DNA of 64,000 bases from a virus. Shown in pieces: positions 1 to 37,417 of this stretch. The position numbers were made by a program, and so were the translations under genes. The notes under the pieces were generated by a model. It made no database searches and was not told where the DNA came from. It saw nothing but the letters and a program-made list of their open reading frames with translations. The DNA lies in IMG/VR virus record IMGVR_UViG_3300049889_000020. One strand, given 5' to 3'. Each line of letters opens with the position of its first letter. The first letter of the stretch is position 1.

Positions 1-68
1 GCCTGCGTCGACTGCCTCGAAGCCTGACCCCCGACCACCCGTTCCGGCACCCCAGGAGAGACACCGTC

Positions 69-677
69 ATGATCCCCATCAGCCACGAAGACTTCACGGC
101 CCTCAAGGCCCTCGACGACGCCCGCCGCGCCGCCGCTCCTCTCACCACCCGAGTCGCCGACTCAGCCAGCAGAGCCTTCTGGTACTTCGCCGAAGAGGCC
201 CTGTGCATCAACCCCAACCCGACCACGCAATCACAGGCATACCCCGACCGGCTCCTGGGCCTCCTCATCGCCTACCCCGAACGCCCGCTGGAGGAGTGCC
301 TGAACGACATCGGGTACGCCGTTATCGAGCCCGACGCTGCGTCCGACCACAGATTGGACCCGCTGTGCTACATCGCCGTCTCGGGCGACACCGGCTCCCC
401 CGTCCGCGTCTTCGCCAATCCCGACGCCGCCTACGAGTTCTCCGGGAACACTGAAGCCGGCATCGGCACCGACATCCTCGACATTCCCTTCGAGCCCCAC
501 GTCGACGTCCCCGACGGCATGGACCTCGACCGGCTCGCCGCGCAGCTCGCTGACACCATCTCCGACCATCAGCACGCCGAAGGGATCGGCTTCAGCGTCA
601 ATACCGAAGCCGTCCTCCCCGCTCTGCCCGCGTTCATTACCGCCTGCCTCGCCCGGCAAGCCGAACTGGACTCATGA
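69..677 (+). CDS. hypothetical protein (first of a tandem paralog pair)
   Basis: ATG 69 with AGGAGAG upstream; G/C-rich third positions; stop overlaps the next start (ATGA). Shares blocks LLGLL.DYP.R.L.ECLN..GY.V..P and ALPAF..ACLA with 674..1390. Confidence 0.6.
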   Translation: MIPISHEDFTALKALDDARRAAAPLTTRVADSASRAFWYFAEEALCINPNPTTQSQAYPDRLLGLLIAYPERPLEECLNDIGYAVIEPDAASDHRLDPLCYIAVSGDTGSPVRVFANPDAAYEFSGNTEAGIGTDILDIPFEPHVDVPDGMDLDRLAAQLADTISDHQHAEGIGFSVNTEAVLPALPAFITACLARQAELDS

Positions 678-1390
678 TGATCGCCCTACCGCGCCCCGAA
701 TACGAGGCCATTGAGATCGCCGACAACGCCCGCCGCGTGCTCCGCAAGCGTTCCGCCAAGGCCGCCAACAACGCCACCCGGGCACTGCGGAGCTACCTCG
801 ACGACGTCATGGGCAGCGGCCACGCTGAAGCCCTCCTGGGTCTGCTCACCGACTACCCCGACCGCTGCCTCGGTGAATGCCTCAACGCCCTGGGCTACGT
901 CGTCACCGACCCTCCACCCGACCCCCAGGCGCCGAAGTGTTACATCGTCGTGCGCAATGACGATGACTGCGATTGCAAGACCCCCATCCACGCCTTCGTC
1001 CTTGAGACAGCCGCGCGCGAGTTTTGCAGCGATCCGTCCACCCACGTCGTCACTGTCGACTTCGAGCCCGCCCCCGAACCTGAGGTGCCCGAAGGACTCG
1101 ACCTCGACATGCTCGCTGCTGACATTTCCAAGATGCTCAGCCGCTACGGGTACGACGAGTGGGGCCTGGAGAACGTCAGCGACGACGAGATCCGTCCCGC
1201 CCTGCCCGCGTTCGTCGCCGCCTGCCTGGCGAACGCCGCCGCGAACAAACCGAGCTGCCCGGATGAGGCGACGTGTCACCACGAGTGCCGCTCCGTTTGT
1301 TTCCGAGTGAAGTATTGCAGTCCGTTGTCCGGCGTGTACCCCGGCGATGACTGGCCGGAGTCAGTGCGCGCGAAGCACGCGGGGGACTGA
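674..1390 (+). CDS. hypothetical protein (second paralog, with extra Cys/His-rich C-terminus)
   Basis: ATG 674 overlaps the upstream stop. Conserved blocks shared with 69..677. Extra tail CPDEATCHHECRSVCFRVKYC. Confidence 0.6.
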   Translation: MMIALPRPEYEAIEIADNARRVLRKRSAKAANNATRALRSYLDDVMGSGHAEALLGLLTDYPDRCLGECLNALGYVVTDPPPDPQAPKCYIVVRNDDDCDCKTPIHAFVLETAAREFCSDPSTHVVTVDFEPAPEPEVPEGLDLDMLAADISKMLSRYGYDEWGLENVSDDEIRPALPAFVAACLANAAANKPSCPDEATCHHECRSVCFRVKYCSPLSGVYPGDDWPESVRAKHAGD

Positions 1391-1397
1391 CCCAATT

Positions 1398-1766
1398 ATG
1401 AAACCCGGCCGCGTTGTCCTATTCCTACTCGCTGTACTCGTCGCACTGGGCATTTACGGTGCCCGCAACACACCTACCATCATCCCGGCCGGCGCCGACA
1501 CCCCACAATGCTGGCAACTTCACGATGGGATCAACCAGCCGTGCGCCTCCCACGGGAAGCTCCGCACAATGGTCGAGTGGCGCATCGTCGACAAACAGGG
1601 CCTCGACCACGACTGCTGGCGTCTCGCCATGACCCTGGCGCACCCCGGCCCCGATGACCCCGATGAGTCCAACTTCACTGACTGCAACAGCAAAGACACC
1701 TACGACCGCTACCAGATCGGTGACTCCTACTGGTCACCCGACTCCATGACCCAACTAGCCGGATAG
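1398..1766 (+). CDS. small membrane-anchored or secreted protein
   Basis: In-frame ATG 1398 followed by the hydrophobic helix VVLFLLAVLVALGIYG. The longer track ORF from 1347 overlaps the previous gene. Confidence 0.5.
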   Translation: MKPGRVVLFLLAVLVALGIYGARNTPTIIPAGADTPQCWQLHDGINQPCASHGKLRTMVEWRIVDKQGLDHDCWRLAMTLAHPGPDDPDESNFTDCNSKDTYDRYQIGDSYWSPDSMTQLAG

Positions 1767-1774
1767 GACTGCCC

Positions 1775-2083
1775 ATGGTCACCGCTAAGAATCCTCGCTT
1801 CTACCGCATTGAGTGGAAGGGCGACCTCATCGAAGCGCCAACCACAGTCAAGAGGTGCGGGACGGTGCCCTTCCGGCCCATGACCGCAGACATCACTTAC
1901 ATGCTCAAAGACGATCAATGGGTGCCCTACCTAGCCCTGATCACCGGGCCGCAGTTAAAGAAAGACAACACCGACGGCAAGTCACTGATCAGTTCTGAAT
2001 ATCACCTGAGCTGGGCCGATGACACCCCGGAATGGATCACCGCCCTCGCTCGCCTCCACACCCCCAAAGTGGTGTCCTCATGA
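1775..2083 (+). CDS. hypothetical protein
   Basis: 102-aa ORF with AGGA upstream and normal codon bias. Confidence 0.55.
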   Translation: MVTAKNPRFYRIEWKGDLIEAPTTVKRCGTVPFRPMTADITYMLKDDQWVPYLALITGPQLKKDNTDGKSLISSEYHLSWADDTPEWITALARLHTPKVVSS

Positions 2084-2256
2084 CGCGCCCTTCGCCCGCC
2101 ACCGGGGACTACACCGCTGAAGCCGAAGCTTGGCTAAGGAATGAGAACTACCTCCCCAGGGCCCGGCACGACTTCGCGGCAGCAATCGCGCAACTCGGCA
2201 TCCTCGCCCAACTCACCCGCATCGCTGATGCTTTGGAGGAGGCGAACCGCGAATGA
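2080..2256 (+). CDS. hypothetical small helical protein
   Basis: ATG 2080 overlaps the upstream stop (ATGA). The rest of the track ORF from 2032 lies inside the previous gene. Confidence 0.45.
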   Translation: MTRPSPATGDYTAEAEAWLRNENYLPRARHDFAAAIAQLGILAQLTRIADALEEANRE

Positions 2257-2780
2257 CGCAGCACTGGTCCGGCCTGCCGAGCTTCGGCTACTTCGACCAG
2301 ACCCTCCCCCAGCACCTCAAAGCGTGTGCCGCTGCCCACGAGGCATCCCACGCCGTGATCGGGGCGCACTTCGGTCTCACGCTAGGTGAAATCAGCATCA
2401 CCCTGCACCGCGAAACCGAAGACGTCTCCGGTCTGGTCGTCATCGAAGGTGATGAGGACGGGAAACGCATCTCTGAAACCCACCTGCCCTCCTGGCTGAT
2501 CGGATGCGCCGCCGGGCAGGTGGGCGAAGCGATGTGGTGGCAGCACTACAAACACTGCACCTTCGAGCAGGGGATGCTCAACGCCGACGCGGGCGCCGCC
2601 ACCGACCGTGCCATGTTCGCCAAGAACGGCGGCAAGAATCCACCCATCAGCCTGCCCCAGGCCCGGCTGATGGCACAGGCCCTCCTGATGCCCCGCTGGG
2701 CACTGGTCTCCCGCTACGCCGCGACCCTCGTCCACGACGGCCGCATGGCCGGCCGCAAGATCCAATCAGAGGGGAGGTAA
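2253..2780 (+). CDS. HExxH zinc-metallopeptidase-like protein (FtsH/M41-like motif)
   Basis: Motif AAAHEASHAVIGAHFG resembles the HEAGHA signature of M41 peptidases. ATGA coupling to the upstream gene. Confidence 0.45.
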   Translation: MTQHWSGLPSFGYFDQTLPQHLKACAAAHEASHAVIGAHFGLTLGEISITLHRETEDVSGLVVIEGDEDGKRISETHLPSWLIGCAAGQVGEAMWWQHYKHCTFEQGMLNADAGAATDRAMFAKNGGKNPPISLPQARLMAQALLMPRWALVSRYAATLVHDGRMAGRKIQSEGR

Positions 2781-2930
2781 CCATGCGGCACCCAGACAGC
2801 TACGAACACGAGCACTGCGGAACCGAGACCGTCGAGTAGAGCGATCCAGAGTCAGCACTGAGGGGAACCGAGACGGGGACAACCAGGGGAGGCCGACATG
2901 AACCGAGGGGACTAAACCCCCTCACACGAG

Positions 2931-2959
2931 AGACCCCCAGCAGACGCGGCTGGGGGTCT
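2931..2959. terminator. bidirectional hairpin between convergent genes
   Basis: 11-bp perfect stem AGACCCCCAGC/GCTGGGGGTCT with a 7-nt loop. No T-tract. Confidence 0.5.
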
Positions 2960-2994
2960 CTCTGCGTGCCGGAACACCGGGACATCAAGGGGGA

Positions 2995-3339
2995 TCAGTC
3001 GTCGCGCGTGTAGTCCTTCGGCACAGCCATGCGGGCACGCCGGTCGGTGTAGCGCCGCGCACGAGGCACCGGGATGCCCAGCGTCAAGAACACCCACGCC
3101 GCTGTCTTCAGCCGCTCCGGGTTGCCCCCACAGTGCCGGCAACGGTGGTAGCTGCCGTCAGCCTTGGGCGCGGGGCATCGGCCGCACTTGCGCAGCGGGT
3201 CGCGCTGCACCTTGACGAACCACCACAGTAGGCCAGCGACCACCGCCAGCGTGCCCAGTGCGGCGGGGGACATGCCGCTGGGGGCCGGTTCCGGGCCGGG
3301 AGCCTGCGCCAGTGCCGCCGCGTAAGCGATGGTCACCAT
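2995..3339 (-). CDS. small membrane protein with Cys4 zinc-ribbon (Spd-like position)
   Basis: Hydrophobic helix LGTLAVVAGLLWWFV followed by CGRC...CRHC. Lies downstream of the tra gene in the same orientation. Confidence 0.55.
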   Translation of the reverse strand: MVTIAYAAALAQAPGPEPAPSGMSPAALGTLAVVAGLLWWFVKVQRDPLRKCGRCPAPKADGSYHRCRHCGGNPERLKTAAWVFLTLGIPVPRARRYTDRRARMAVPKDYTRDD

Positions 3340-3361
3340 GTGTAGTCGCCGCCTTGGTCGT

Positions 3362-3503
3362 TGGATGGTGCTGGACTGTCCTGGATGGTTCTGGCTAGTT
3401 CTGGACGGTGCTGGCCTCTCCGCGAGATACCCCTAAGGTCGAGGGCTCGCTGACGGCCCGGCTGGACGGTGTTGGATGGTGCTGGACTCCAGCACCATCC
3501 AAC
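3362..3503. repeat. iteron-like array of a 13-nt motif TGGAYGGTKYTGG (5 direct + 1 inverted copy); candidate clt / protein-binding locus
   Basis: Copies at 3362, 3382 and 3402 are exactly 20 nt apart. Further copies at 3463 and 3473, and an inverted copy at 3489-3501. The last two copies form a 16-bp-arm palindrome (3471-3486 / 3488-3503) 8 nt after the tra stop codon. Confidence 0.7.
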
Positions 3504-3510
3504 CAGTTGG

Positions 3511-5676: not shown

Positions 5677-5699
5677 GATGGTGTGCTCCTCTCGTTTGA

Positions 5700-7633: not shown

Positions 7634-7710
7634 GTCGCCCCCCTCCAGTTGGTAGCGCCGACCGGCGGGGTTCGTTCCACCCGTCCGGTCGGCGACGTCT
7701 TGTGGTCCCA

Positions 7711-7746
7711 CCACAGTACACCGGGTGTACGGACAGCTGAACAGCC
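7711..7746. promoter_or_regulatory. divergent promoter/operator region: 15-bp palindrome GTACACCGGGTGTAC plus CGGACAGCTGAACAGC box
   Basis: Perfect palindrome at 7716-7730 (GT..AC type, as for GntR operators). The 16-mer at 7730-7745 recurs at 9408-9423. Confidence 0.55.
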
Positions 7747-7759
7747 TGACAGGTCGGCT

Positions 7760-8590
7760 ATGATTCGTGGCGTGCCACTAACTGGGGTCCACTTCCGGAG
7801 CGTCAACCGCTTCGAGGTGGGTACGCCGCTGCATCGTCAGGTCGCCGACGCGATACGTCGTGCGATCACTGACGGCACCCTTGTCGCAGGTGAGACCCTG
7901 CCCGGTGAGCACACGATCGCCGAGATGGCCGGCGTCGCTCGCGCCACGGTGCGCACCGCCATGGATGATCTGGTAGCTGAGGGCCTGATCGTGAAGCGTT
8001 CGGGGTGCCCCACCCGAGTTGTGACCCCACCACAAGTCCGCCGGATGTCGACGCAGCGATACCAGGAGGCCCTGGACGCGATCCGCGCCAACGACGGCCG
8101 CCATCCGCTGTCGTCGGCGTTCACGGCGGATCACGGCGTGAAGTGGCCGGAACACAACGTGTTGGCCCACTACGTCGAAGAGCCGGCCAGTGAGGACTTC
8201 GCGGCGCGCCTGGGGCTGGCACCCGGAACGATGGTGCTCACGCGGGAGCTGATCAAGCAGGTGCGCGGGGTGACGGTGCAGCTGCAAACGTCAGTGATTC
8301 CCTTAGGCCTCGTGGCCGGCACGCCGGTCGCTGACCCTGATCGGCAGCCCTGGCCGGGGGGAACCCTGGCGGAGCTGTACTCCGTGGGGCTCGTGGTGTC
8401 GCGTGTCCTGGAGGAGGTCAGGGTTCGCCCCCCGACGCCGCGCGAGCGTCAGGTTCTGGGTATGGATGTGGTGGGCCCGGTGGGGGAGATCATGCGCGTG
8501 TTCTACGCGGGGGACCGGCCGGTGGAGTGTTCGATCGCGGTGATCGAGGCATCGAGCTACGTGCTCAGTTTCGAGACCACGATCACGTGA
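7760..8590 (+). CDS. GntR-family transcriptional regulator (Kor-like)
   Basis: Winged-HTH signature TLPGEHTIAEMAGVARATVRTAMDDLVAEGLIVKRSG. Start uncertain: ATG 7760, or a possibly leaderless GTG 7772, because TATGAT at 7759-7764 looks like a -10 box. Confidence 0.8.
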   Translation: MIRGVPLTGVHFRSVNRFEVGTPLHRQVADAIRRAITDGTLVAGETLPGEHTIAEMAGVARATVRTAMDDLVAEGLIVKRSGCPTRVVTPPQVRRMSTQRYQEALDAIRANDGRHPLSSAFTADHGVKWPEHNVLAHYVEEPASEDFAARLGLAPGTMVLTRELIKQVRGVTVQLQTSVIPLGLVAGTPVADPDRQPWPGGTLAELYSVGLVVSRVLEEVRVRPPTPRERQVLGMDVVGPVGEIMRVFYAGDRPVECSIAVIEASSYVLSFETTIT

Positions 8591-8853: not shown

Positions 8854-8864
8854 TTCTACCTGAG

Positions 8865-9390: not shown

Positions 9391-9460
9391 TCACAGTAGC
9401 ACCTGTCCGGACAGCTGGACAGCTACGGAACTCACCCAGTAGACTGGCCCTCGTTCCGGT
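9391..9460 (+). promoter_or_regulatory. promoter/operator of the sigma-factor operon
   Basis: -35-like TGGACA (9416-9421), an 18-nt spacer, -10-like TAGACT (9440-9445), then TCGTTCCGGT (9451-9460). Palindrome TGTCCGGACA at 9404-9413. The box CGGACAGCTGGACAGC (9408-9423) is shared with 7730-7745. Confidence 0.5.
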
Positions 9461-9481: not shown

Positions 9482-9775
9482 GTGTCGACTCTGCAAACGC
9501 TTGACGAACGAGGCCCGTGCAAGGTATGCAACGCCACCGTCGTCGTCAGGATTCGCCGCGATGGCGGAATCCCCGTCACCGCTGACGGCTACACCGGTCT
9601 CACCGACGACGGCGACGACTACGTCTGCCGCGACCACTACTGTCCTGTGTGCGGCGGCTACCACACCAACGCAGCCGCGTTCGACCGCTGCGCCCACGAG
9701 GGCGTCGAAGGGGTCGACATGACCCCGCCGTGCAGCATCGAAGCTGCCTACGCGGTGCTCGGGGCGAGCGCATGA
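9482..9775 (+). CDS. small zinc-ribbon protein
   Basis: GTG 9482 with GGGAGGG upstream. Contains CKVC...CPVC. Confidence 0.55.
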   Translation: MSTLQTLDERGPCKVCNATVVVRIRRDGGIPVTADGYTGLTDDGDDYVCRDHYCPVCGGYHTNAAAFDRCAHEGVEGVDMTPPCSIEAAYAVLGASA

Positions 9776-10488
9776 GTACTGCCGTCGTCCCGCACTTCCG
9801 CTCCAGCATGCGCAAGCGACGCCCCGCTGACGAGGTTGAGCGCGGGGACTGCTGGGATCTCGTCGCATCCGCCCAAGGTGGGGACTCCGCCGCGTTCGGC
9901 ATGCTCTACGAGAGATACGTCGATGTGGTGTTCCGTTTCGTCCTCTACCGCACCGTGGACCGGCCCACCGCCGAAGACCTCACCAGCGAAACGTTCTGCC
10001 GGGCGCTGAAGCGCATCGACTCGGCGCACTACCAGGGCCGTGACGTCGGCGCGTGGTTCGTCACCATCGCCCGCAACCTCGTCCTCGATCACGTGAAGTC
10101 CAGCCGTCAGCGCCTGGAGATGCCTTCAGGCGATGCGATCGACACGGGCGAAAGTGCTTGGCCGAGCCCGGCGAACATGCGTTCAGTGGGGTTCAGCAAG
10201 CAGATGCGCCGCCAGGTCTTCGCGATCGGCCTCACGGAGGACGCCGACCCCGGCGAGGAGGCCACCAATGTGGTCTACCTCGACCACGCGCGCACCGCGC
10301 TGGATCGGGCCCGGAGTCAGCTCACCGCCGGTCAGCAGGAAGTACTGCACCTGCGGTTCGACCTGGAGCTGTCGGTCGCGCAGACGGCCGCCGCGATGGG
10401 TGAGGGCTATAACGAAGGGGCGGTGAAGGCGTTGCAGCACCGCGCGGTGCGCCGGCTGGCTGACCTGCTCCCCGAAACGATCCGGTGA
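9772..10488 (+). CDS. sigma-70 family (ECF-like) RNA polymerase sigma factor
   Basis: Region 2: YERYVDVVFRFVLYRTVDRPTAEDLTSETF, WFVTIARNLVLDH. Region 4 HTH: LSVAQTAAAMGEGYNEGAVKALQHRAVRRL. ATG 9772 overlaps the upstream stop. Confidence 0.8.
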   Translation: MSTAVVPHFRSSMRKRRPADEVERGDCWDLVASAQGGDSAAFGMLYERYVDVVFRFVLYRTVDRPTAEDLTSETFCRALKRIDSAHYQGRDVGAWFVTIARNLVLDHVKSSRQRLEMPSGDAIDTGESAWPSPANMRSVGFSKQMRRQVFAIGLTEDADPGEEATNVVYLDHARTALDRARSQLTAGQQEVLHLRFDLELSVAQTAAAMGEGYNEGAVKALQHRAVRRLADLLPETIR

Positions 10489-11641: not shown

Positions 11642-11774
11642 TCGACGCTGGCGACCACCACCCGCCAGCATCACCCCTCCTATCGACGCGCCGGGCTCCC
11701 ACTCCCCGGCGCGTCGATGCGTTCCGGGCCTTCCGGCGTGGCTACATTGACCCGTCCGATCTTCGGAGGTGGTT

Positions 11775-15274: not shown

Positions 15275-15329
15275 GCGGTGCTCGCTTTCGGTTGGGTCGG
15301 AACGCTTACGGCCGGTACATCGCAGAGTT

Positions 15330-15389
15330 GCGGGGCTGCGTTACAGTTGCGGCAATAGCGCAGCCCCGCTACACTCGAAAGTGTTCCGA
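15330..15389 (+). promoter_or_regulatory. inverted repeat GCGGGGCTGCG/CGCAGCCCCGC followed by -10-like TACACT and a degenerate GTGTTCCGA box
   Basis: 11-bp arms at 15330-15340 and 15359-15369. TACACT at 15370-15375. GTGTTCCGA at 15381-15389, lying 25 nt before ATG 15415. Confidence 0.45.
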
Positions 15390-16616: not shown

Positions 16617-16712
16617 CCCACAGACTCCCAGGGACCTCCAGAAGCGGGCATCGGGGAAGGATCGCTCACGACTGGCGCAGGCCCAATCGCCGGGTGGGAG
16701 CCGGTGCAGTAA

Positions 16713-16758
16713 GGAACGGTTCCGCTCTCCCTCGTCGGAACAAGAGCGGAACCGTTCC
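16713..16758. repeat. perfect 16-bp inverted repeat GGAACGGTTCCGCTCT / AGAGCGGAACCGTTCC (14-nt spacer)
   Basis: Read directly from the sequence. The right arm contains a CGTTCCGG box (16753-16760). Could be a terminator or an operator. Confidence 0.6.
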
Positions 16759-16839
16759 GGGACGGTCCCCCTGCCTAGTGGCACTGGGCGGGGTGGCCGT
16801 CCCCTCGCCCGTTCCGGCACCCCGCAGACAGGAGACCCC

Positions 16840-17388
16840 GTGTCCGCCATATCTGAATCCGGTGATCGCTACCACCGGATCTCCACTGTCCTGGCCCACT
16901 ATCAGGCCCCTATGTTCATCGTCGCGCTCACCGTCGACGCCGCGCTCGCGCTGACCCATCAGGCCCGCACCCCGGCCGGTTACGTCATCGGTTTCGTCGC
17001 CCTCTTGGCCGTCATGGCGACCATGCTGGCGGAGCTGCGTCACTCCCGATCACCGTGCGAGCGGTGCGCCGCCAAGACCCCCCTGGATCCGCAAGCCGCA
17101 GTGCAGCGCCGCGCCCGGTGGCTACGGTTATTCCACCTCCTCAACAGCGTTCCCGCGCTCACCGTGCTGATCGTGCTGTATGTCACGGGAATCCTCGTGC
17201 TCCCCGCTGACTTCTCCTCCTACCTGGCAGAGGCGCCGCTGTACCTGTTCTGGGCGGTGGCGGCAGCCGCGAACCTCATTCACCGACCGCTGGAGCCGTG
17301 GTGCCCACAGTGCAACTGGGGCGACGGCGGCGACGAGGAAGACGTACCCGCACCGTCACCCGTTCCGGCCGCCACCAACACCCACTAG
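16840..17388 (+). CDS. membrane protein with CxxC...CxxC
   Basis: GTG 16840 with GGAGA upstream. Four hydrophobic helices; CERC and CPQC motifs. Confidence 0.55.
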   Translation: MSAISESGDRYHRISTVLAHYQAPMFIVALTVDAALALTHQARTPAGYVIGFVALLAVMATMLAELRHSRSPCERCAAKTPLDPQAAVQRRARWLRLFHLLNSVPALTVLIVLYVTGILVLPADFSSYLAEAPLYLFWAVAAAANLIHRPLEPWCPQCNWGDGGDEEDVPAPSPVPAATNTH

Positions 17389-17395
17389 GAGCGTC

Positions 17396-17939: not shown

Positions 17940-17945
17940 CGCGAA

Positions 17946-17969
17946 CAGCCCGCCATTGCTGGCGGGCTG
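17946..17969 (+). terminator. hairpin after 17547..17939
   Basis: 9-bp stem CAGCCCGCC/GGCGGGCTG with a 6-nt loop. Confidence 0.45.
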
Positions 17970-18120
17970 TCCCGGTTCCGGCCTCACCCGAGGGTTATCC
18001 CACAGAGGCATAGCCTCAATGTGGGTCCCGAGATCCGCAAGGCCGAGTGTAACAGGGCAGTGCGGGCGATTCCAGATCATGCGGCGTGCCCCAGCTCCCG
18101 TCAGCGCCGTGGCTGACACC

Positions 18121-23900: not shown

Positions 23901-26900
23901 CCCGCGCGATGACGCTGCGGTCGCGGTCGCCGCTGAACGCTTCGCGAAGATGATGCGCCGCCACGGGGAGTCCACGGCGTTCGACGACATCCGCACCGCC
24001 ATCGGTGACGGTGACGTTCACACCGCGATCGCTTCCGGGAAGCTCAAGGCCGGCATGCTGTTCACCGCCGCCGGGGCGTTGCGTGAACAGCGTCGGGTGA
24101 AGCGCAATGAGGGCGCGAAGGCCCGCCGGCTCGCGAAGCGCCTGGACCGTGACCGGATCAAGTCCCTGATCGGTTCAGTGGATGCGGAGTTGCGTCGCCG
24201 TAAGGGCGCGACCGAAGATGGCAAGCGCGGCGCGGCGAACGTGGCCATTGGTCCGGTTTCGAGCACCGCCGCGCCGTCCAAGACCGCCCCGGCCGCCGAG
24301 CCCGCACCGCACCCGCAGCAGGCCCGTCGCGACGAACGCGACGCCCGCCTAGCCGCCGACGGCAACCGCGTTCAGCGCGCCCAGGAGCACATGCGGGAAG
24401 CCCGCACCGCCGCCGATGGCGGTGATTTCGAGGGCGCATTCGCTCACCTCGATCAGGCGCAGGAACTGAATCCGGAGCGCCAGCGACTCTGGGATAAAGC
24501 GCGTGGAATCGTCACCGGGCAGCGCGACCGCAGTAAGTCCACCGCTACACCAGCGGAGCCCGATCAGGCTCGTCGTGCTGAGTTCGATAAGGCCGTCGCT
24601 GAGGACTTCCCCCCCGACGCCTCTGTGCGACTGTTTCAAGACTGGGATCGGGACCACTCCCGCCCTGACCTGGCCAGCGATGTCACCGCTGTTCGCCGAG
24701 CCCGCAATGGTTACGTCACTGTGCGGGAGTCCAAGGGCACCACAGTTGACGTGTTCCCACGGCAGCTAGAGCTGGTCGGCAGCGCCCAGGGTGCACAATC
24801 GCCCCAGAGAGAGGGTGATGATCGTGGGAGTTCTGGCGAGACAAACCGAAGCGTGGTACCGGACGTACCAGCCGCAGACGTACGCGGGGATCAAGGACAA
24901 GCAGACGTTCTTCGCCGATCTGGAGGAGCAAGCCCGCCAGCAGATACAGCAGACAGCCGACCAGCTGGCCGGGCCGGATCCGGAGGGGGAGACCTACCAG
25001 GAGAAGCTGGGGCGCCTGAACGCCGCGCAGCAAGCGGCGACAGAGAAGGTGATGCGGGAGTTCCTGATGAGCCCGCCGCCCCCGAACGCCCCGGACAACG
25101 CGCTGCCACTGCCGGCGACACCGGACCCGTCGATGGTGCCGACGCAGGACCCGATAGATCAGGCGCTGACTCAAGCGCTGGCGGACTTCCAGGAGGCGGC
25201 CGACGAGCTGAGGCGTCAGGAGAGGGAGAGCGCGAAGGCGGCGATGCCGACACTGCCGGCGCGCCCAGCGCACCTGAGTTAACCGAAGCCGACCAGCCCA
25301 GCGCCGACATTGGGCAGGTCGATGCGATCCCCGACACCGGGGAGTCCTTTCACCCCACCGGGCTGGACGACTTCGCTCCGGCCGGTAAGAAGTCGAAGCT
25401 CGAAGCGAACCTCGCGGCGCTGCGCACGTTGCGCCAGTTGCAAGACGACCGCCGCAGCGCCACCCCCGAAGAGCAGGCCGTGCTCGCTCGCTGGGCCGGT
25501 TGGGGTGGACTGCCGGAAGTCTTCGACGACAACAAACCCGAGTACGCGAAACAACGGGAGGAGCTGCGTGGACTGCTGTCGGACTCTGAATGGGCAGAGG
25601 CTCGCCGCAATACCCTCAACGCCCACTACACCGACCCCCGCGTGGTGCAATCGCTGTGGAAGGCAATGGGAGATCTGGGGTTCGACGGTGGTCGCGTCCT
25701 CGAACCCGGCTCCGGATCCGGAACGTTCATCGGATTCGCGCCCGGCAACGCCGACATGGTCGGAGTCGAGTTGGACTCGACGACAGCTGCGATCTCTCGT
25801 GCCCTCTACCCGCACGCGACGATAAGAAACGAGTCCTACGCGGCCACCCGGCTACCGGCCGGCTCGTTCGACGCGACGATCGGCAACGTCCCCTTCGGTG
25901 ACTTCGCCCTGACCGACCGGGTGCACAACCCCAATCGCAAGATGTCGATCCACAACCATTTCATCGCCAAGGCCCTGGCCCAAACCAAACCCGGCGGGCT
26001 AGTCACCCTGCTCACGTCGCGCTACACCCTGGACTCGAAAGACTCCGCCGCGCGCAAGAAGCTGGCCGAGCTGGGCGACCTGGTTGGTGCGGTGCGCCTG
26101 CCTACGGGGTCGCACTCCCGGATGTCGGGCACCGATGTCATTGAGGACGCCCTGATCTTCCGGCGCCGGGAGCCCGACGCGGCACCGTTGACGTCGCAGG
26201 ACTGGGTGAACTCCCACGATCAGGACATCAACGGTCACACGGTCACCATCAACGACTACTTCACCGCCCATCCCGAGCAAGTGCTGGGTGAGGTCACCGC
26301 AGAGGCCGGCCAGTACGGCAGCGGGTCACTGATCGTCAAGGGCGACAAGACGATGGCGGACCTGCCGGCCGCGCTGGACCGGATCGTGGAGTCGGCGAAA
26401 GCCGACGGCATCACCGCGTCGCCCCGCATGGAAGGCCTCACGGCGTTCACCACCCCCGACGATGACCGCCACGAAGGCCACATCGCTGCCCACGAAGACG
26501 GCACATTCACCCAAGCCGAACAGGGCACCGCCGTGCCCCTGGACGTGCCCGCCAAGCACGCTGACGCGGTGCGCGGGCTGATCGGCCTACGCGACACCCT
26601 GCGGTCCCTGCTGGCCGCTGAAGCGGCTTCGGTGTCGGACTCCCCGGACATCAAGGCGCTGCGCAAGCAACTCAACGACCGCTACGACGCGTTCGTGAAA
26701 AAGTACGGCCCGGTCAACCACTACACGCTGACCAAATCTGGGGCGCGCAAGCCCGACCCGGCCCGCAACCTGTTCCGCAAAGACCCCATGTCGGCGATCG
26801 TCCGCGCCCTGGGCGCTTACGACGCCGAGACCGGCACCGAGGCGAAGACCAGCATCTTCCGCAAGCGCGCCAGCACCCCACGGGAGATCCCCACCCACGC

Positions 26901-31252: not shown

Positions 31253-31435
31253 GGGGAGACCTTCACTGTAGCTGACATGGCGGCGTGTCGCTGCCGCCAT
31301 TTGCGTCACCAGTGATCTACTGCGCGCAACGCGCCTGGTACTGACCGGTGCGAGTCCCCGAGCACGATGGGGGTTCGCTTCGGCCTACCCGCTTCCCGTG
31401 CTCGAACACACACCGAGCGCAAGGGAGACGCGGCA

Positions 31436-33956: not shown

Positions 33957-34255
33957 GGCTGGTCCTCCGTCCAGTGCTCCATGCAGTGCCGGCACGGCGC
34001 CATCACGAAACCGCAACCGCAACCGCCGCAGTCGAAGTCGACCATGCACTCGCGGGTGTAGGGCTGCACTGAAGCGCGGGACCGATCGGGTCCGTGCGCC
34101 GCGTAGGCACCGTCGTAGCGTTCCGGGTCTCGCTGCGGGGCGTGCTCGCTCGGCGGTGCGGCCACCGCATCGGAGACCAGTGGCGCCTCATCTTCGACCG
34201 TGAGCAGCCATTCCCGGTCAACGGCGTTCCACACGCAGCCCTCGCCGGGCCTCAT
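33953..34255 (-). CDS. Cys-rich protein
   Basis: ATG 34255 overlaps the upstream stop. Contains CMVDFDCGGCGCGFVMAPCRHC. Confidence 0.5.
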   Translation of the reverse strand: MRPGEGCVWNAVDREWLLTVEDEAPLVSDAVAAPPSEHAPQRDPERYDGAYAAHGPDRSRASVQPYTRECMVDFDCGGCGCGFVMAPCRHCMEHWTEDQP

Positions 34256-34962
34256 CGGATCGCCGCCTGACGGGTGCGACTCACGCGGCGGTCGGTGCCG
34301 ATGTCGGCGTTGCGCCCGGCGATGGCGCCAGCCCCGCCGCCGCTGCCGGTGAGGTTGCGCTTGAACGGCTTGCCCAGCTTGGGGAATAGGTCATCGAAGG
34401 TGTCGGCGACCAGCGCGGCGCGGTCACGGAGCACGAGCGCGGTGGACGGCCCGTCGCTGACGTGTTCGGTCACGGCCTTGGCGTGCGCGGCTTTCAGGCG
34501 CTTCTCGATGACGTAGGCGAAGCCCAGCCACCAGGTGCGCCGGTAGGCGGCAATGGACTCCATGGCGTCCCAGGGGCGCTGGCGGACCACCTGGGTGGTG
34601 CCTTGTAGGAGCAGGCTCGTGTAGAGCATTTCGACGAGTTCGAGGTCGGCGGGCATGCCTACGACGGTGGCGTAGTCGCTGGTGCGGGTGGTGCCGAAGA
34701 TGGCGACCTTGCAGCCCAGTGGTTCGGTGACGCACCCCAGCAGGGTGGCCTTCTCCAGGCTGTAGGGATTGTCGAAGTTGATGCGGATAGAGGTGGCGCT
34801 GGGGCGCCGGCCGCTGACGGCGTCGATGTGGGCCTGTTCTACGCCGTGGGTGGTCATCATTTCGAGTGCCTTGGCGGTGCAGCTGTCGGCTTCGGCGGGG
34901 AACTCGGTTGATTCGGCCTTGGCGAGCAGGCCACGGATGCGGGCGAGGACTTTGGGGTCCAT
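34252..34962 (-). CDS. DUF2786-like protein
   Basis: ATG 34962 with GAGGGAGA upstream. The N-terminus KVLARIRGLLAKAESTEFPAEADSCTAKALEMM matches my recollection of DUF2786. Confidence 0.5.
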   Translation of the reverse strand: MDPKVLARIRGLLAKAESTEFPAEADSCTAKALEMMTTHGVEQAHIDAVSGRRPSATSIRINFDNPYSLEKATLLGCVTEPLGCKVAIFGTTRTSDYATVVGMPADLELVEMLYTSLLLQGTTQVVRQRPWDAMESIAAYRRTWWLGFAYVIEKRLKAAHAKAVTEHVSDGPSTALVLRDRAALVADTFDDLFPKLGKPFKRNLTGSGGGAGAIAGRNADIGTDRRVSRTRQAAIR

Positions 34963-35141
34963 GTGGGTGGGTCTCCCTCGTACGGTCGGTCGGAACGAGT
35001 CCAACCCTACCATGGTTGCACAGCCCCGCAACACGCGGGTTCCTGAGAGGACCCTAAGAGCGTGACCGTCCGTACACGCGCGGTAATGTCCGCTCGCTAC
35101 CGGAGCACCACCCGTTCCGGCCCCACGTAAGAGGAGATCAC

Positions 35142-35861: not shown

Positions 35862-36487
35862 TCCGTGGTCGCGTCGCACTGCTGTCTGCGTTAGCAGTGC
35901 TCGCCCTCGCTACCGGCTGCTCAGCGGCCGGTAGCGGGGACACCCCCCCTCCGAGCGCCCCGCCGGTTCACAACATGGCGGCACCGCCCCCGGTGCAGCC
36001 GGCCAGCATCGACATTCCCCAGATCGGGGCGCACTCGTCGCTGATACCGATCGGCATCAACCCGAAGACCAAAGAGCTGACAGAGCCCGACGTCACGCAC
36101 CCCCAGCAGGCCGCCTACTACTGCCAGACCGACGTGATCCCCGCGACGTCGTGTAAGTCCGGGGTGGTGCCCGGTCAGGCCGGTCCGTCGATCATCATCG
36201 GGCATGTTGACGGGTCGGTCGTGCACGGTGCACACCAGGAGGGGATCTTCTTTCACCTCCACGAGCTGCGCGTCGGCGACAAGATTTCAGTGACCCGCGT
36301 GGATGGCACGGTGCTCAACTACACCGTCTACCGGCTCATACAGAAGCCCAAGCCGCAGTTCCCCACCCAGGAAGTCTACGGCTACACCCCGGTATCGGAG
36401 TTGCGCCTGATCACTTGCTCCGGTCAGTTCATCGGGGGACAGTTCGGCTACGCCGACAACACCATCGTCTTTGCGAGGCTCGCCTGA
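35858..36487 (+). CDS. class F-type sortase (lipobox-anchored)
   Basis: IIIGHVDG (His), LRLITCSG (Cys), NTIVFARL (Arg). N-terminal LATGC lipobox. Confidence 0.75.
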   Translation: MIRGRVALLSALAVLALATGCSAAGSGDTPPPSAPPVHNMAAPPPVQPASIDIPQIGAHSSLIPIGINPKTKELTEPDVTHPQQAAYYCQTDVIPATSCKSGVVPGQAGPSIIIGHVDGSVVHGAHQEGIFFHLHELRVGDKISVTRVDGTVLNYTVYRLIQKPKPQFPTQEVYGYTPVSELRLITCSGQFIGGQFGYADNTIVFARLA

Positions 36488-37074
36488 TGAAGCACCGTCG
36501 CCGTCGCTCAACCACCCCGTATCTCGCTGCCCTCGCATCGGTGGGCACGGTCGCGGCGATGGTCGCGGTCCCCGCTGCCGCCACCGCCGACCCGTGCCCG
36601 GTGGGGCAGATCGTGGGCGGCAACGTGCTGTGCGAGCCCATCTTCACTCCCGGCGACGGACTGGCCGCGCCTCCCCCGCCTGGGCTGGGGGGTCCGCCGC
36701 CGCGCGCGGTGCCGGTCGTACCACCGTGCCAGCCGCCGAAGGTGCTCTCGGGTGTGCTGTGCGTCGAGGTCGGCCCGCCCGTGGCAGCGCCGCCACCTAT
36801 GGTCGTACCGCCAGCGCCGGTCGCACCCCCGGTGATGGCGCAGCCGGTTCACCGGGCACCCGTCCGGCCGGTACCGCTGCCCCGACCGCATCCGATAGTG
36901 CGCCAGCCAGTCGCGCCGCCGCGTCACGCAGCCACGCTGCCCGCGCTGACCCCGCCGGCCCCGCCGGCCCCGGTGGAGTCTGCGCCGGCCGCTCCGGTCG
37001 CCCAGGACTGCCCACCGCAGGAGGCGCTGGTGACCATTCGGGTCGCCTGGGTACCGCTGCGGGTGGGCCTCTGA
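36487..37074 (+). CDS. secreted proline-rich protein
   Basis: ATG 36487 overlaps the sortase stop. Signal peptide followed by long PPxP tracts. Confidence 0.55.
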   Translation: MKHRRRRSTTPYLAALASVGTVAAMVAVPAAATADPCPVGQIVGGNVLCEPIFTPGDGLAAPPPPGLGGPPPRAVPVVPPCQPPKVLSGVLCVEVGPPVAAPPPMVVPPAPVAPPVMAQPVHRAPVRPVPLPRPHPIVRQPVAPPRHAATLPALTPPAPPAPVESAPAAPVAQDCPPQEALVTIRVAWVPLRVGL

Positions 37075-37146
37075 CAGCCTGGCAGACGTAGGCCCCCGGT
37101 CCGGCTCTCCGCGAAAGCGCGACTCCCACCGGGGGCATCGCTTTGT

Positions 37147-37308
37147 TCAGAGCAGGTTCGGGCGCTCACTGCTGACGATGGGTGTGCCGGGTCCGAGGCC
37201 GTAGTCGGCACGGATCGCGGCGAGCGCCTGTTCGGGGCGCAGTTCCACGCGGATCCGCTGCGGGGGCAGCACGGTCATGATGTCGCGTAGCTCTGTGCAG
37301 TCGGTCAT
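37147..37308 (-). CDS. 53-aa hypothetical protein (below the ORF-track cut-off)
   Basis: MTDCTELRDIMTVLPPQRIRVELRPEQALAAIRADYGLGPGTPIVSSERPNLL; high G/C at third positions. Confidence 0.35.
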   Translation of the reverse strand: MTDCTELRDIMTVLPPQRIRVELRPEQALAAIRADYGLGPGTPIVSSERPNLL

Positions 37309-37337
37309 GCCGCAGCGTAGAACGCTGGCGCGTGTTC

Positions 37338-37417
37338 CGCAGCCCCGCAGTTAACTGGTAGAGTAGGTGTCGTTCCGGTCTACGGGGAGGCGCCATGCGT
37401 AGCGACCGCTTGTGATG
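37338..37417 (+). promoter_or_regulatory. promoter-like element plus 6-codon uORF coupled to the hydrolase gene
   Basis: CGCAGCCCCGCAG (37338-37350), TAGAGT (37359-37364), TCGTTCCGGT (37370-37379), GGGGAGG. The uORF ATG 37395 .. TGA 37413-37415 overlaps ATG 37415 (TGATG). Confidence 0.45.

What the first reader, a model, noticed from the sequence alone, without database searches (positions are those of the whole stretch)
35..37397. Strand-biased CGTTCCGG box at a fixed 21-22 nt upstream of start codons across both the conjugative-like and phage-like parts
Seen: top-strand copies at 40-47 (ATG 69), 9452-9459 (GTG 9482), 16810-16817 (GTG 16840), 20881-20888 (in-frame GTG 20911) and 35113-35120 (GTG 35142). 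Each leaves 21 or 22 nt to the start codon, with the SD in between. Further top-strand copies: 11720-11727 (47 nt before portal GTG 11775), 16753-16760 (in the 16-bp inverted repeat), 17361-17368 (27 nt before ATG 17396), 37371-37378 (16 nt before uORF ATG 37395) and 34119-34126 (inside a minus-strand gene, possibly chance). There is also a degenerate GTGTTCCGA at 15381-15389. I found only two copies on the other strand (8223-8230, 25718-25725). My rough composition-based expectation is 2-3 per strand. Two sub-classes exist. One is TAnnnT-N5-TCGTTCCGGT (9440, 20869, 37359). The other is CCCGTTCCGGC(A/C)CC (38-52, 16808-16822, 35111-35125, 17359-17373); the first two of these share a 16-nt identity, CCCGTTCCGGCACCCC. 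Inference: the box could be a +1-proximal operator for an element repressor, a promoter element read by the element's own sigma factor (9772..10488), or an RNA leader motif next to the SD. Its presence on both sides of the tRNA suggests the two halves are co-regulated.
Basis: seen in the sequence. Interest (0 to 1): 0.65.

Follow-up and report, generated by a model that had tools for sequence, protein, structure and literature searches.

The report
Phage promoter-start and leader box GTTCCGG
A short sequence, (C/T)GTTCCG(G/A), sits at the predicted transcription start of many promoters, and in the leaders before other genes, of a large uncultured soil actinobacterial phage and its relatives; it is a real, conserved regulatory signal, but what reads it is unknown.

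Summary
All 12 CGTTCCGG copies lie where stated, 10 on the + strand and none beyond 37.4 kb.

The raw 8-mer excess is modest (12 against 5.4 expected). The architecture is decisive. Across 352 kb from 14 related phage genome pieces, TAnnnT-N6-N-GTTCCG occurs 40 times against about 1 expected.

The core is Y-GTTCCG-R.
- **Class 1 (about half the copies):** the box follows an extended -10 promoter (TGGTAnnnT) in a fixed register. The base before the G is a pyrimidine in 48 of 48 cases, so transcripts probably begin with GUUCCGR. The start codon follows 14-33 nt later (median 22).
- **Class 2:** no promoter. The box has C-rich flanks in intercistronic leaders and often follows a strong hairpin.

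The "strand bias" is a transcription-direction bias: minus-strand genes carry the box on the minus strand. One copy inside a 3644-aa DarB-like gene is held by selection on the nucleotides, not the amino acids.

The window is a single phage genome, not a conjugative element plus a prophage. Neither the element's sigma factor nor its GntR protein tracks with the box.

I favour a sense-strand leader signal read on the RNA (confidence 0.4). A DNA operator or stoperator-like site (0.3) is the main rival. It is a new variant of the repeat motifs known in actinophages.

The parts
40..47 (+). Box CGTTCCGG, promoter-less class with CCC/CACCCC flanks, 21 nt before ATG 69
   Evidence: the orthologous site in the 120-kb relative has a 30-nt spacing (L025 9963)
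2969..2976 (-). TGTTCCGG in the 3' UTR of minus-strand gene 2995-3339, just before its terminator hairpin (about 2929-2962)
   Evidence: the 7-mer is kept in L025/L002 and in the 69% relative L033 (AGTTCCGG) although the flanks differ
9416..9445 (+). Sigma-70/sigma-A-type promoter TGGACA-18-TAGACT
9452..9459 (+). Box at predicted -1/+1 (6 nt after TAGACT), 22 nt before GTG 9482 (Zn-ribbon protein, then sigma factor)
   Evidence: orthologous promoters in ctgA, L003, L028 (CGTTCCGA), L029 and L030 (TGTTCCGG), L033
11684..11716 (+). 12-15 bp GC hairpin ahead of the portal gene
   Evidence: both stem arms are conserved in seven of the nine sequences compared (not L031, L032) while the loops vary
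11720..11727 (+). Box 3 nt after the hairpin, 47 nt before portal GTG 11775; it occupies the -35 position of a conserved -10-like TACATT (11743-11748)
   Evidence: exact in window/L002, L029, L031, one mismatch in L028 and L030, lost in L003 and L033
15297..15304 (-). CGTTCCGA 22 nt before ATG 15274 of minus-strand gene 15017-15274
15370..15389 (+).
   Evidence: in six genomes the TTG of the -35, four -10 positions (T, A, A, T) and all 7 box bases are invariant while the flanks vary
16753..16760 (+). Box inside the palindrome CGGAACCGTTCCG (terminator-like hairpin)
16759..16803 (+). Long hairpin; the arms differ between relatives (GGACGG/CCGTCC in the window, GGGCGG/CCGCCC in L002), which by eye keeps the pairing
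16810..16817 (+). Box 6 nt after the hairpin, 22 nt before GTG 16840
   Evidence: L004 5598 keeps hairpin plus box with different flanks
17361..17368 (+). Box in the last codons of gene 16840-17388, 27 nt before ATG 17396; the second of two direct repeats that flank a gene absent from the 97% relative
17946..17981 (+). Hairpin (17946-17969) plus GGTTCCGG (17974-17981), at the head of a conserved 140-nt leader before ATG 18121
   Evidence: hairpin plus box kept in 9 genome pieces, down to portal relatives of 57% identity
20866..20888 (+). Internal promoter TGGTATGAT-N6-CGTTCCGG inside the 3644-aa DarB-like ORF, followed by GAGGGG and the in-frame GTG 20911
   Evidence: in 9 genomes the codon supplying the last T of TAnnnT encodes D, G, A or P but always ends in T; the CGT/TGT, TCC, GGY codons are kept
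34119..34126 (+). Exact copy of unresolved status, in a 493-nt stretch with no confident gene call, 3' of minus-strand gene 34252-34962
   Evidence: conserved only in the 97% relative
34990..35009 (-). Promoter TAGGGT-N6-CGTTCCGA for the minus-strand DUF2786 gene (ATG 34962)
35084..35120 (+). GGTAATGT -10-like hexamer (35084-35089) with the box at about +17 (35113-35120), 21 nt before GTG 35142
   Evidence: L008 13389 has the same layout (TAAGGT, 24 nt, box)
37356..37378 (+). Promoter TGGTAGAGT-N6-CGTTCCGG, 16 nt before ATG 37395 (6-codon uORF overlapping the YdjM-like gene start)
   Evidence: in ctgA the same promoter and box drive a different gene
8223..8230 (-). Antisense copy inside the GntR gene; a background copy
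25718..25725 (-). Antisense copy inside the giant ORF; a background copy

Best explanation
**Shown.** Y-GTTCCG-R is a conserved, direction-specific cis element of a clade of large soil actinophages, probably infecting Pseudonocardiaceae. It takes two forms.
- **Class 1.** The box is fused in a fixed register to a host sigma-A-type extended -10 promoter. The consensus is T-G-G-T-A-n-n-n-T, a 6-nt discriminator with G at two positions, Y, then GTTCCGR.
- **Class 2.** The box stands without a promoter in intercistronic leaders, with flanks CCC-box-CCCC. It is often 0-9 nt downstream of a strong hairpin and mostly 16-37 nt before the next start codon.

**Inferred, high confidence.** In class 1, transcription starts at the G of the box, by the Y(-1)/R(+1) rule of start-site choice. 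These mRNAs therefore begin with pppGUUCCGR and consist of box, a short pyrimidine-rich spacer, the SD and the start codon.

**Inferred, my commitment.** The heptamer works after initiation, as a sense-strand leader signal on the mRNA or nascent RNA. Some conserved factor reads it: host machinery, or a phage protein conserved across the clade. That factor sets the translation or stability of a regulon of about 25-30 early and accessory transcription units. The promoters are positioned so that the transcript begins exactly at the signal. In operons, the upstream hairpin insulates the signal, or marks a processing point that would again leave the box at or near a 5' end.
For: **Architecture.**
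- 40 N6 sites against 0.95 expected, and 48 N5-7 sites against 1.75 expected.
- Logo of the 48 sites: T/G/G/T/A at -16 to -12, T at -8, G-rich at -6/-5. Position -1 is a pyrimidine in 48 of 48, although the search pattern allowed any base there.
- In promoter-less copies position -1 is variable (C 11, G 5, T 4, A 3). The pyrimidine is therefore a start-site constraint, not part of the box.

**Direction.** In the listings inspected, the intergenic start-proximal copies are sense to the gene downstream. This includes minus-strand genes in the window (15297-15304, 34990-34997) and in L008, L010 and L033. In class 1 promoters the box never lies upstream of the -10.

**Spacing to the start codon.** 14-33 nt for 42 of the 43 class 1 sites, median 22.

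**Conservation.**
- Box and -10 positions are invariant while the flanks drift at the DUF932 promoter.
- Selection acts on the nucleotides inside the DarB-like ORF.
- Hairpin plus box is kept at 17974 in 9 genome pieces.

- The heptamer is unchanged between lineages whose portals are only 57-65% identical (L010, L030, L031). An immunity repressor site would be expected to diversify.
- In L010/L031 the -10-to-box spacing is N5 at six of the seven promoters found there (one is N7). This still puts a Y-G at a normal start distance.

**Length and form.** A 7-nt asymmetric site with no partner half-site fits single-strand recognition better than duplex recognition (inference).

**Hairpins.** A strong hairpin ends within 10 nt upstream in 12 of 45 promoter-less start-proximal copies. 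The figure is 3.6% at random positions and 2 of 48 at promoters.

**Density.** About 28 sense intergenic copies lie in 64 kb of the closest relative. Sixteen of them are in the 23 kb of small genes just upstream of the window's start.
Against: - No transcript data exist: no RNA run holds this DNA. Start sites and processing are therefore inferred.
- No conserved pairing between the box and the SD or other leader parts was found.
- Predicted accessibility gives little support. Promoter-less intergenic boxes are no more unpaired than coding copies (0.38 against 0.34, P=0.21). Class 1 boxes are only slightly more open than random 5' ends (0.51 against 0.45, P=0.014).
- Two conserved copies are not start-proximal: 17974 is 139 nt before its gene, and 2969(-) lies in a 3' UTR.
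- The rigid -10-to-box register is explained equally well by a DNA site that must overlap RNA polymerase.
- No reader was identified.
Confidence: 0.4

Rival explanations
1. DNA operator plus stoperator-like site. A phage-encoded, sequence-specific DNA-binding protein (an immunity or early-shutoff repressor) binds the asymmetric box. At class 1 promoters it overlaps +1 and blocks initiation or escape. At intergenic copies it acts as an orientation-dependent roadblock, as the L5 gp71-type repressor does in cluster A mycobacteriophages.
For: - Many copies per genome, an asymmetric site, orientation tied to transcription, and presence both at promoters and in short intergenic spaces. This is the published description of cluster A operators and stoperators (PMC9283540).
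- The fixed register with the -10 hexamer.
- A conserved copy at the end of a minus-strand operon (2969-2976) fits a roadblock better than a translation signal.
- RNA accessibility gives no support to the RNA model.
- A plasmid- or prophage-like lifestyle is plausible: a GntR or XRE regulator divergent from the early operon, an FtsK/TraB-like gene, and iteron-like repeats.
Against: - Only 7-8 bp are conserved and the flanks differ between the two classes, whereas stoperators are 13-14 bp.
- The core is identical across lineages with 57-65% portal identity, whereas immunity specificities normally diverge.
- No repressor candidate tracks with the box. GntR is replaced in L029, and Pfam and PHROG scans of about 75 window ORFs found nothing resembling a stoperator-type repressor.
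- No integrase was seen in the window.
- Sense copies inside genes are at background frequency (40 sense, 30 antisense).
Confidence: 0.3
2. A core-promoter feature only. GTTCCGR is a favoured initially transcribed sequence read by host RNA polymerase (start-site choice, escape or pausing) in a promoter cassette that has been copied around the genome. Promoter-less copies are relics of such cassettes, or microhomology scars of cassette exchange.
For: - The conserved block runs continuously from -16 to +7, like the consensus promoters of other phages.
- Gene 16840-17388 is flanked by direct CGTTCCGGC repeats and is absent from the 97% relative. The same promoter and box drive different genes in the window and in ctgA at 37371. 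The boxes therefore sit at mosaic joints, as reported for cluster O repeats (PMC4351075).
- The portal-upstream copy decays in some lineages.
Against: - Promoter-less copies have their own distinct conserved flanks (CCC...CCCC) and are kept at orthologous sites in deeply diverged genomes. Examples are 17974 in 9 genome pieces and 16810 in the 73% relative, where the flanks differ.
- They keep a start-codon-proximal position and sense orientation.
- Relics should decay at the box as fast as at the lost -10.
Confidence: 0.15
3. A promoter element (-10 CGTT or -35) for the phage's own ECF-like sigma factor (9772-10488).
For: - CGTT resembles ECF -10 motifs (from general knowledge).
- A sigma gene lies in the operon behind the 9452 box.
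Against: - The box sits 6 nt downstream of a strong extended -10, too close to be a second -10 with its own -35.
- I saw no conserved -35 element 16-18 nt upstream in promoter-less copies, where that region is hairpins of unrelated sequence.
- The first C is not conserved (C, T or G).
- Relatives with boxes lack the sigma gene at the syntenic position.
Confidence: 0.03
4. A strand-skewed word unrelated to gene expression: a KOPS or TraB-recognition (TRS/clt) type motif for the FtsK-like translocase, a Chi-like site, avoidance of inverted Type III restriction sites, or plain chance.
For: - It is an 8-mer with strong strand skew in an element that encodes an FtsK/SpoIIIE-like protein.
- The raw count excess is modest.
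Against: - Such words are not expected to lock to -10 hexamers at N6, or to sit 14-33 nt before start codons.
- Copies switch strand with gene direction.
- There is no clustering of the clt kind. A different repeat cluster (3340-3510) next to the FtsK-like gene is the better clt or iteron candidate.
- Copies inside genes are not skewed (40 sense, 30 antisense).
Confidence: 0.02

Closest known systems
Start-associated sequences (SAS) and extended SAS of cluster K mycobacteriophages (Pope et al. 2011, PMC3203893)
   Same: - A short asymmetric repeat present in 11-19 copies per genome.
- One orientation, immediately upstream of start codons of non-structural genes.
- Conserved across subclusters even before unrelated genes.
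- About half the copies are preceded by an inverted repeat.
- Function still unknown, with a role in translation suspected.
   Different: - SAS is 13 bp (GGGATAGGAGCCC), contains the SD, and lies 3-7 bp from the start codon. The box here is 7-8 nt, lies upstream of the SD at 14-33 nt, and has a different sequence.
- SAS is not described as fused to -10 promoter hexamers.
- ESAS inverted repeats share a consensus within a genome. The hairpins here are unrelated in sequence and look like terminators.
Operators and stoperators of cluster A mycobacteriophages (L5 gp71-type repressor; PMC9283540)
   Same: - More than twenty asymmetric sites per genome.
- Found both at promoters and in short intergenic spaces.
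- Orientation strictly correlated with the direction of transcription.
   Different: - Stoperators are 13-14 bp and are bound by a two-domain monomeric repressor of a temperate phage. Here only 7-8 bp are conserved and no repressor is identified.
- About half the sites here are promoter-linked.
- The core does not vary between deep lineages, and lysogeny is not shown.
17-bp repeat TGTTCGGNNNCCGAACA of cluster O mycobacteriophages (PMC4351075)
   Same: - The half-site TGTTCGG differs from TGTTCCGG by one base.
- More than 30 copies, many of them intergenic.
- The repeats flank gene insertions and deletions, as the two boxes here flank gene 16840-17388.
   Different: - The cluster O repeat is a palindrome with no meaningful orientation and is not tied to start codons or promoters.
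- The box here is a single oriented half. Palindromic forms occur only at 16700-16760.
Phage consensus promoters whose conserved block extends into the transcribed region, e.g. T7-type promoters conserved from -17 to +6 (from general knowledge)
   Same: A conserved block that spans the start site and fixes the first transcribed bases of many phage transcripts.
   Different: - The upstream half here is an ordinary host sigma-A extended -10, not a promoter for a phage polymerase.
- The transcribed half also occurs on its own, without any promoter.

Membership tests
Actinobacterial sigma-A extended -10 promoters (class 1 sites) | TAnnnT -10 hexamer | tested here: met
   The hexamer was part of the search pattern. 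It occurs with the box 40 times at N6 against 0.95 expected. It is invariant at orthologous sites.
Actinobacterial sigma-A extended -10 promoters (class 1 sites) | TGn immediately upstream of the hexamer | tested here: met
   T in 32 of 48 and G in 40 of 48 at the two TG positions. These were not part of the search pattern.
Actinobacterial sigma-A extended -10 promoters (class 1 sites) | Transcription start 6-8 nt after the hexamer at a purine preceded by a pyrimidine | tested here: inconclusive
   The sequence fits: a Y-G dinucleotide at 7/8 nt in 48 of 48 sites. No RNA data exist to map the 5' ends.
Cluster A stoperator/operator system | Asymmetric site, many copies, oriented with transcription, at promoters and in short intergenic spaces | tested here: met
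Cluster A stoperator/operator system | 13-14 bp site | tested here: not met
   Only Y-GTTCCG-R is conserved, and the flanks differ between the two classes.
Cluster A stoperator/operator system | Cognate monomeric HTH-plus-stoperator-domain immunity repressor in a temperate phage | tested here: inconclusive
   No such protein was recognised in Pfam or PHROG scans of about 75 window ORFs. Only 64 kb of about 115 kb is in the window, and no profile specific to that repressor was searched.
Cluster K start-associated sequences | 13-bp GGGATAGGAGCCC that contains the SD, 3-7 bp before the start codon | tested here: not met
   The sequence is different. The box lies upstream of the SD, 14-33 nt from the start codon.
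Cluster K start-associated sequences | One orientation, start-proximal, before genes of different families, restricted to part of the genome | tested here: met
   no copies in the tail module from 38 to 64 kb
Promoters of the element's ECF-like sigma factor | Conserved -35 and -10 pair at 16-18 nt spacing, co-occurring with the sigma gene | tested here: not met
   No conserved upstream element was seen. The sigma gene is absent from the syntenic position in box-bearing L028, L029, L030 and L033.
FtsK KOPS / TraB TRS (clt) motifs | Skewed 8-mers independent of gene starts (KOPS), or tight clusters of repeats in a clt locus (TRS) | tested here: not met
   The box is locked to -10 hexamers and leaders, and switches strand with gene direction. 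It shows no clusters.

The most novel reading that the evidence does not exclude
The phage gives a whole regulon of its mRNAs the same 5'-terminal tag, GUUCCGR, by two routes: precise initiation at about half the units, and cleavage just after intercistronic hairpins at the rest. A conserved factor (ribosome, RNase or a phage takeover protein) then recognises this 5' tag to favour or time the expression of phage messages. It would work like a sequence-defined leader or cap-like mark in a bacterial virus.
Probability: 0.12. Interest if true: 0.8.

Novelty: new variant of a known kind. Interest (0 to 1): 0.5.

Why it matters
Genome-wide, oriented short repeats near gene starts are known in a few groups of actinophages. 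Only the cluster A stoperators have a worked-out mechanism; the cluster K and cluster O repeats remain unexplained.

This clade offers an unusually clean case. The same heptamer is welded to the predicted start site of dozens of host-type promoters, and it also stands alone in operon leaders. It is conserved across deep lineages, and it is maintained inside a coding sequence against amino-acid change.

That makes the question directly testable. Is such a repeat read as DNA or as RNA, and by host or by phage factors? A handful of reporter constructs and one 5'-end mapping experiment could answer it.

It also gives a practical consensus (TGGTAnnnT-N6-Y-GTTCCGR) for annotating promoters and early transcription units in an uncultured group of phages of about 100-120 kb, probably infecting Pseudonocardiaceae.

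Tried and rejected
**Mechanism tests that gave nothing.**
- A hairpin between the box and the SD that would hide the SD. Folding 18 leaders gave no common structure.
- Selection for single-stranded accessibility of the box. The result was weak or absent.
- Known RNA families. There were no Rfam hits at gathering score in the whole window, and only sub-threshold hairpin noise in 16380-18200.

**Candidate readers.**
- The element's sigma factor and the GntR protein were both rejected on synteny and site geometry.
- The 3644-aa protein as a virion RNA polymerase using hairpin promoters, as in N4. It was rejected: the protein is a DarB-like methyltransferase/helicase antirestriction protein (PHROG 10089, E=0), with no PDB sequence match.
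- The conserved Zn-binding 97-aa protein (9482-9775). AlphaFold gave a mean pLDDT of 68.5, and no PDB fold match had E below 0.1. It remains uninformative.

**Other kinds of motif.**
- KOPS, TRS, Chi or Type III avoidance were rejected on the positional evidence.
- Pairing of the box with the 16S rRNA helix 45 loop, or mimicry of the rrn BoxA. I considered both from memory only and judged them unlikely. Neither was tested.

**Searches for data or relatives.**
- Transcript evidence: no RNA runs hold this DNA, and the DNA runs are soil metagenomes.
- Close relatives among isolates: none by megablast in phages or plasmids, and none in GTDB genomes. The nearest genome hits are an Actinophytocola MAG (46% capsid identity) and Streptosporangium (35%), with at most one degenerate site. 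The nearest isolated phage, Brevibacterium phage Cantare, lacks the motif in its first 50 kb.
- One metagenome scan found nothing.
- A second pattern scan of viral contigs returned almost only chance singletons.

Full report
**1. The observation**

Ten copies are on the + strand and two on the - strand, and none lies beyond 37,378.

The raw excess is modest.
- Dinucleotide shuffles expect 5.4 copies, and 2 of 100 shuffles reach 12.
- Per strand, 10 against 2.7 expected gives a Poisson P of 5e-4. Within the first 37.4 kb it is 6e-6.
- The box did not appear among the 15 most over-represented + strand 8-mers I listed, which look codon-driven.
- One-mismatch variants are at background, 119 against 124.

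The stated spacings to start codons (21, 22, 22, 22 and 21 nt), the two sub-classes and the shared 16-mer are all correct.

**2. What the window is**

The DNA is 63-71% G+C. It encodes the following phage functions:

| Function | Coordinates |
|---|---|
| Portal | 11775-13448 |
| MuF-like head protein | 13414-14754 |
| HK97-type capsid | 31367-32791 |
| Tail sheath | 41196-42659 |
| Tail tube | 42671-43084 |
| LysM protein | 46566-47261 |
| SLT/NlpC lysin | 48343-50208 |
| Baseplate J | 52625-53785 |

The "conjugative-like" left part holds an FtsK/SpoIIIE-like gene (3511-6033, minus strand) and a GntR/UTRA gene (7649-8590). It is syntenic with the portal block in related loci from contigs of about 39-115 kb drawn from soil metagenomes and assemblies; related contigs in this set reach 120 kb.

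Portal homologues carry names such as Pseudonocardiaceae, Pseudonocardia and Actinophytocola. The nearest isolated phages are Brevibacterium phage Cantare and Gordonia myoviruses, at 42-47% capsid identity.

This is one large phage genome, possibly phage-plasmid-like. It is not an integrative element next to a prophage. The tRNA-like gene at 8864-8941 is a phage tRNA position, since L003 has two tRNA-Gln genes there.

**3. Anatomy of the box: class 1**

Relatives show that the first base varies (C, T, sometimes G) and that the last G can be A. The core is therefore Y-GTTCCG-R.

I built a set of 14 non-redundant genome pieces totalling 352 kb.
- TAnnnT-N6-N-GTTCCG occurs 40 times against 0.95 expected from third-order Markov simulations.
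- With N5-7 spacing the count is 48 against 1.75.

These 48 sites fall at 25 or more different loci, and they lie on whichever strand the downstream gene is on.

Their logo reads T-G-G-T-A-n-n-n-T, then a discriminator with G at two positions, then a pyrimidine, then GTTCCG(G 35 / A 13), then T or C. This is a textbook extended -10 promoter of the sigma-A type.

The 9440 copy also has a TGGACA -35 at 18 nt. The DUF932 promoter has a conserved TTACAG/TTG -35.

In promoter-less copies that position is variable. I read this as the Y(-1)/R(+1) preference of start-site choice. Transcription would then start at the G, and these mRNAs would begin with GUUCCGR.

In the L010/L031 lineage the spacing is N5 at six of the seven promoters found there (one is N7). 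This still places the Y-G at a normal start distance.

The start codon follows the box by 14-33 nt in 42 of the 43 class 1 sites that have a called gene, with a median of 22.

Window sites of this class are:
- 9440-9459;
- 20866-20888;
- 34990-35009 on the minus strand, which drives the DUF2786 gene;
- 37356-37378.

**4. Anatomy of the box: class 2**

The other copies have no -10 hexamer at that distance. Their flanks are distinct: CCC before the box and CCCC after it.

Most lie 16-37 nt before a start codon, in the sense orientation.

Many follow a strong G+C-rich hairpin by 0-9 nt. Window examples are 11684-11716, 16759-16803 and 17946-17969. Others are L029 15471, ctgA 21081 and ctgA 7286.

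A strong hairpin ends within 10 nt upstream in 12 of 45 such copies. The figure is 3.6% at random positions and 2 of 48 at promoters.

The hairpins have unrelated sequences. By eye, the arm differences between the window and L002 at 16759-16803 keep the pairing. They look like U-less terminators or RNA-end structures rather than a common protein site.

Some copies fit neither simple picture.
- 35113 lies at about +17 of a GGTAATGT promoter.
- 11720 sits at the -35 position of a conserved TACATT hexamer ahead of the portal gene, and it decays in some lineages.
- 17974 heads a conserved 140-nt leader.
- 2969-2976 (minus strand) lies in a 3' UTR before a terminator and is kept in a 69% relative.
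- 34119 is unresolved.
- The two antisense copies (8223, 25718) are inside genes and look like background.

Across the family, GTTCCGR inside genes is not skewed, with 40 sense and 30 antisense copies.

**5. Conservation**

At the DUF932 promoter, six genomes share the TTG of the -35, four -10 positions (T, A, A, T) and all seven box bases, while the flanks drift.

The copy inside the giant ORF is the most telling. Nine genomes were compared, down to 65% portal identity.
- The codon supplying the last T of TAnnnT encodes D, G, A or P but always ends in T.
- The next conserved codons are CGT or TGT, then TCC, then GGT or GGC. Neighbouring third positions vary freely.

Selection here therefore acts on the DNA or RNA, not on the protein. 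A GAGGGG and an in-frame GTG, TTG or ATG follow in eight of the nine genomes. An internal promoter and start that make an N-terminally shortened DarB-like protein are plausible.

In 64 kb of the closest relative there are about 28 sense intergenic copies. Sixteen lie in the 23 kb of small genes just upstream of where the window begins. The tail module has none.

A stringent pattern scan of 2.9 million viral contigs found multiple hits only in contigs of this clade, including nine in the 120-kb relative.

More distant relatives have no copies or only degenerate ones. These are the Actinophytocola MAG, Streptosporangium and the first 50 kb of Cantare.

**6. How it most likely works**

*Shown:*
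- a direction-specific heptamer under purifying selection;
- fusion in a fixed register to host-type promoters;
- separate occurrence in operon leaders.

*Inferred with good confidence:* class 1 transcripts start at the box.

*What reads the box is not shown.* I favour a post-initiation, sense-strand reading on the RNA, affecting translation or stability (0.4), for these reasons:
- In the listings inspected, the intergenic start-proximal copies are transcribed and sense.
- In class 1 promoters the box is never upstream of the -10.
- The site is 7 nt long, asymmetric and has no partner half-site.
- It is unchanged across lineages that are otherwise deeply diverged. This suggests a conserved reader rather than an immunity repressor, whose specificity usually diversifies.
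- Promoters are placed so that the message begins exactly at the box.

Against this:
- I found no conserved leader structure.
- There is no clear selection for accessibility.
- No transcript data exist.

The main rival is a DNA operator plus stoperator-like roadblock (0.3). It matches the published description of cluster A sites closely in copy number, asymmetry, orientation and location. It also explains the fixed register and the 3' UTR copy. It is weakened by the short core, the invariance of the box across lineages and the lack of a candidate repressor.

A third reading treats the box as only an initially transcribed promoter feature whose promoter-less copies are relics or recombination scars (0.15). 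It fits the box-flanked indel at 16810/17361 and the mosaic joint at 37371. It does not explain the conserved, distinctly flanked promoter-less copies.

Reading by the phage sigma factor, and readings such as KOPS, TRS or Chi, are rejected on geometry and synteny.

**7. Comparison with known systems, and verdict**

The closest known things are:
- cluster K start-associated sequences with their upstream inverted repeats;
- cluster A operators and stoperators;
- the cluster O repeat, whose half-site TGTTCGG is one base from this box.

The box meets the shared features: many oriented copies, a position near gene starts, and restriction to part of the genome. It fails the defining ones of each family:
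- SAS: the sequence, inclusion of the SD and a 3-7 bp spacing;
- stoperators: a 13-14 bp site with a cognate repressor;
- cluster O: palindromy.

Its own distinguishing feature is the weld to the predicted +1 of extended -10 promoters. I did not find that described in the papers read.

I rate it a new variant of a known kind. The feature is real and well supported, its mechanism is open, and its interest is moderate (0.5).

Noticed in passing
window 20254-31188: A 3644-aa ORF between the MuF-like and capsid genes is a DarB-like antirestriction protein with methyltransferase and helicase regions (PHROG 10089, E=0). Relatives have 2600-3500-aa versions. It probably has an internal promoter, SD and in-frame start at 20911, which would give a shorter isoform.
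   Followed up: partly
window 3340-3510: The 171-nt gap between gene 2995-3339(-) and the FtsK/TraB-like gene holds several direct repeats of about 14 nt (CTGGAYGGTKCTGG). Relatives have different repeated words at the same place (GTCCAGTGGAC in L032; TGTCAA/GACAC in L030). It is a candidate iteron, or a clt/TraB-recognition array.
   Followed up: no
window 1-8590 and relatives L028-L033: An FtsK/SpoIIIE-like gene, a GntR/UTRA (KorSA-like) regulator and, in L032, a DUF2637 protein are syntenic parts of these phage genomes. Together they resemble an actinomycete plasmid-transfer module. This hints at a phage-plasmid or conjugation-capable lifestyle. No integrase was seen in the window.
   Followed up: partly
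window 9403-9414: A perfect 12-bp palindrome, CTGTCCGGACAG, lies next to the -35 of the 9440 promoter. L028 has a related inverted repeat there. It is a likely operator for the neighbouring divergent regulator.
   Followed up: no
window 9482-9775: A 97-aa protein has nine invariant Cys/His residues (C13, C16, C49, H52, C54, C57, H61, C70, C84). It is the first gene behind the box promoter in all relatives. A sigma factor follows it only in the window, the 120-kb relative and L003. It has no Pfam or PHROG hit and no PDB fold match.
   Followed up: partly
window 8864-8941 (-): A tRNA-like gene is called with a 4-base anticodon (cggc) and no assigned amino acid. It is conserved in the 97% relative. 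L003 has two ordinary tRNA-Gln genes at the same position.
   Followed up: partly
window 16810-17396 vs L002 14821: Gene 16840-17388 is flanked by direct CGTTCCGGC repeats. It is missing from the 97% relative, where the hairpin and one box join directly to the sequence that follows the second box. This looks like an indel by recombination between boxes.
   Followed up: partly
window 17982-18120: A 140-nt leader before gene 18121-18390 has blocks conserved in six genomes (GAGTGTARCAG, TTTCCAGATCATGCGGCGTGCC, GGCTGACACC-ATG). It could be a second kind of promoter or a structured leader. There is no Rfam match.
   Followed up: partly
window 16408-16839: A 432-nt stretch with no confident gene follows the DUF932 gene. 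It contains the palindromes GGAACGGTTCC and CGGAACCGTTCCG. L029 has about 400 nt at the same place.
   Followed up: no
window 37395-37415: A six-codon uORF behind the 37371 box ends in a TGATG overlap with the start of the YdjM-like gene. In the 120-kb relative the same promoter and box drive an unrelated 65-aa gene.
   Followed up: no
L227 8356-8400: A distant relative in an Actinomycetota MAG (34% capsid identity) has two boxes in tandem, TGTTCCGGtaaCGTTCCGG, after a TTACAT hexamer.
   Followed up: no
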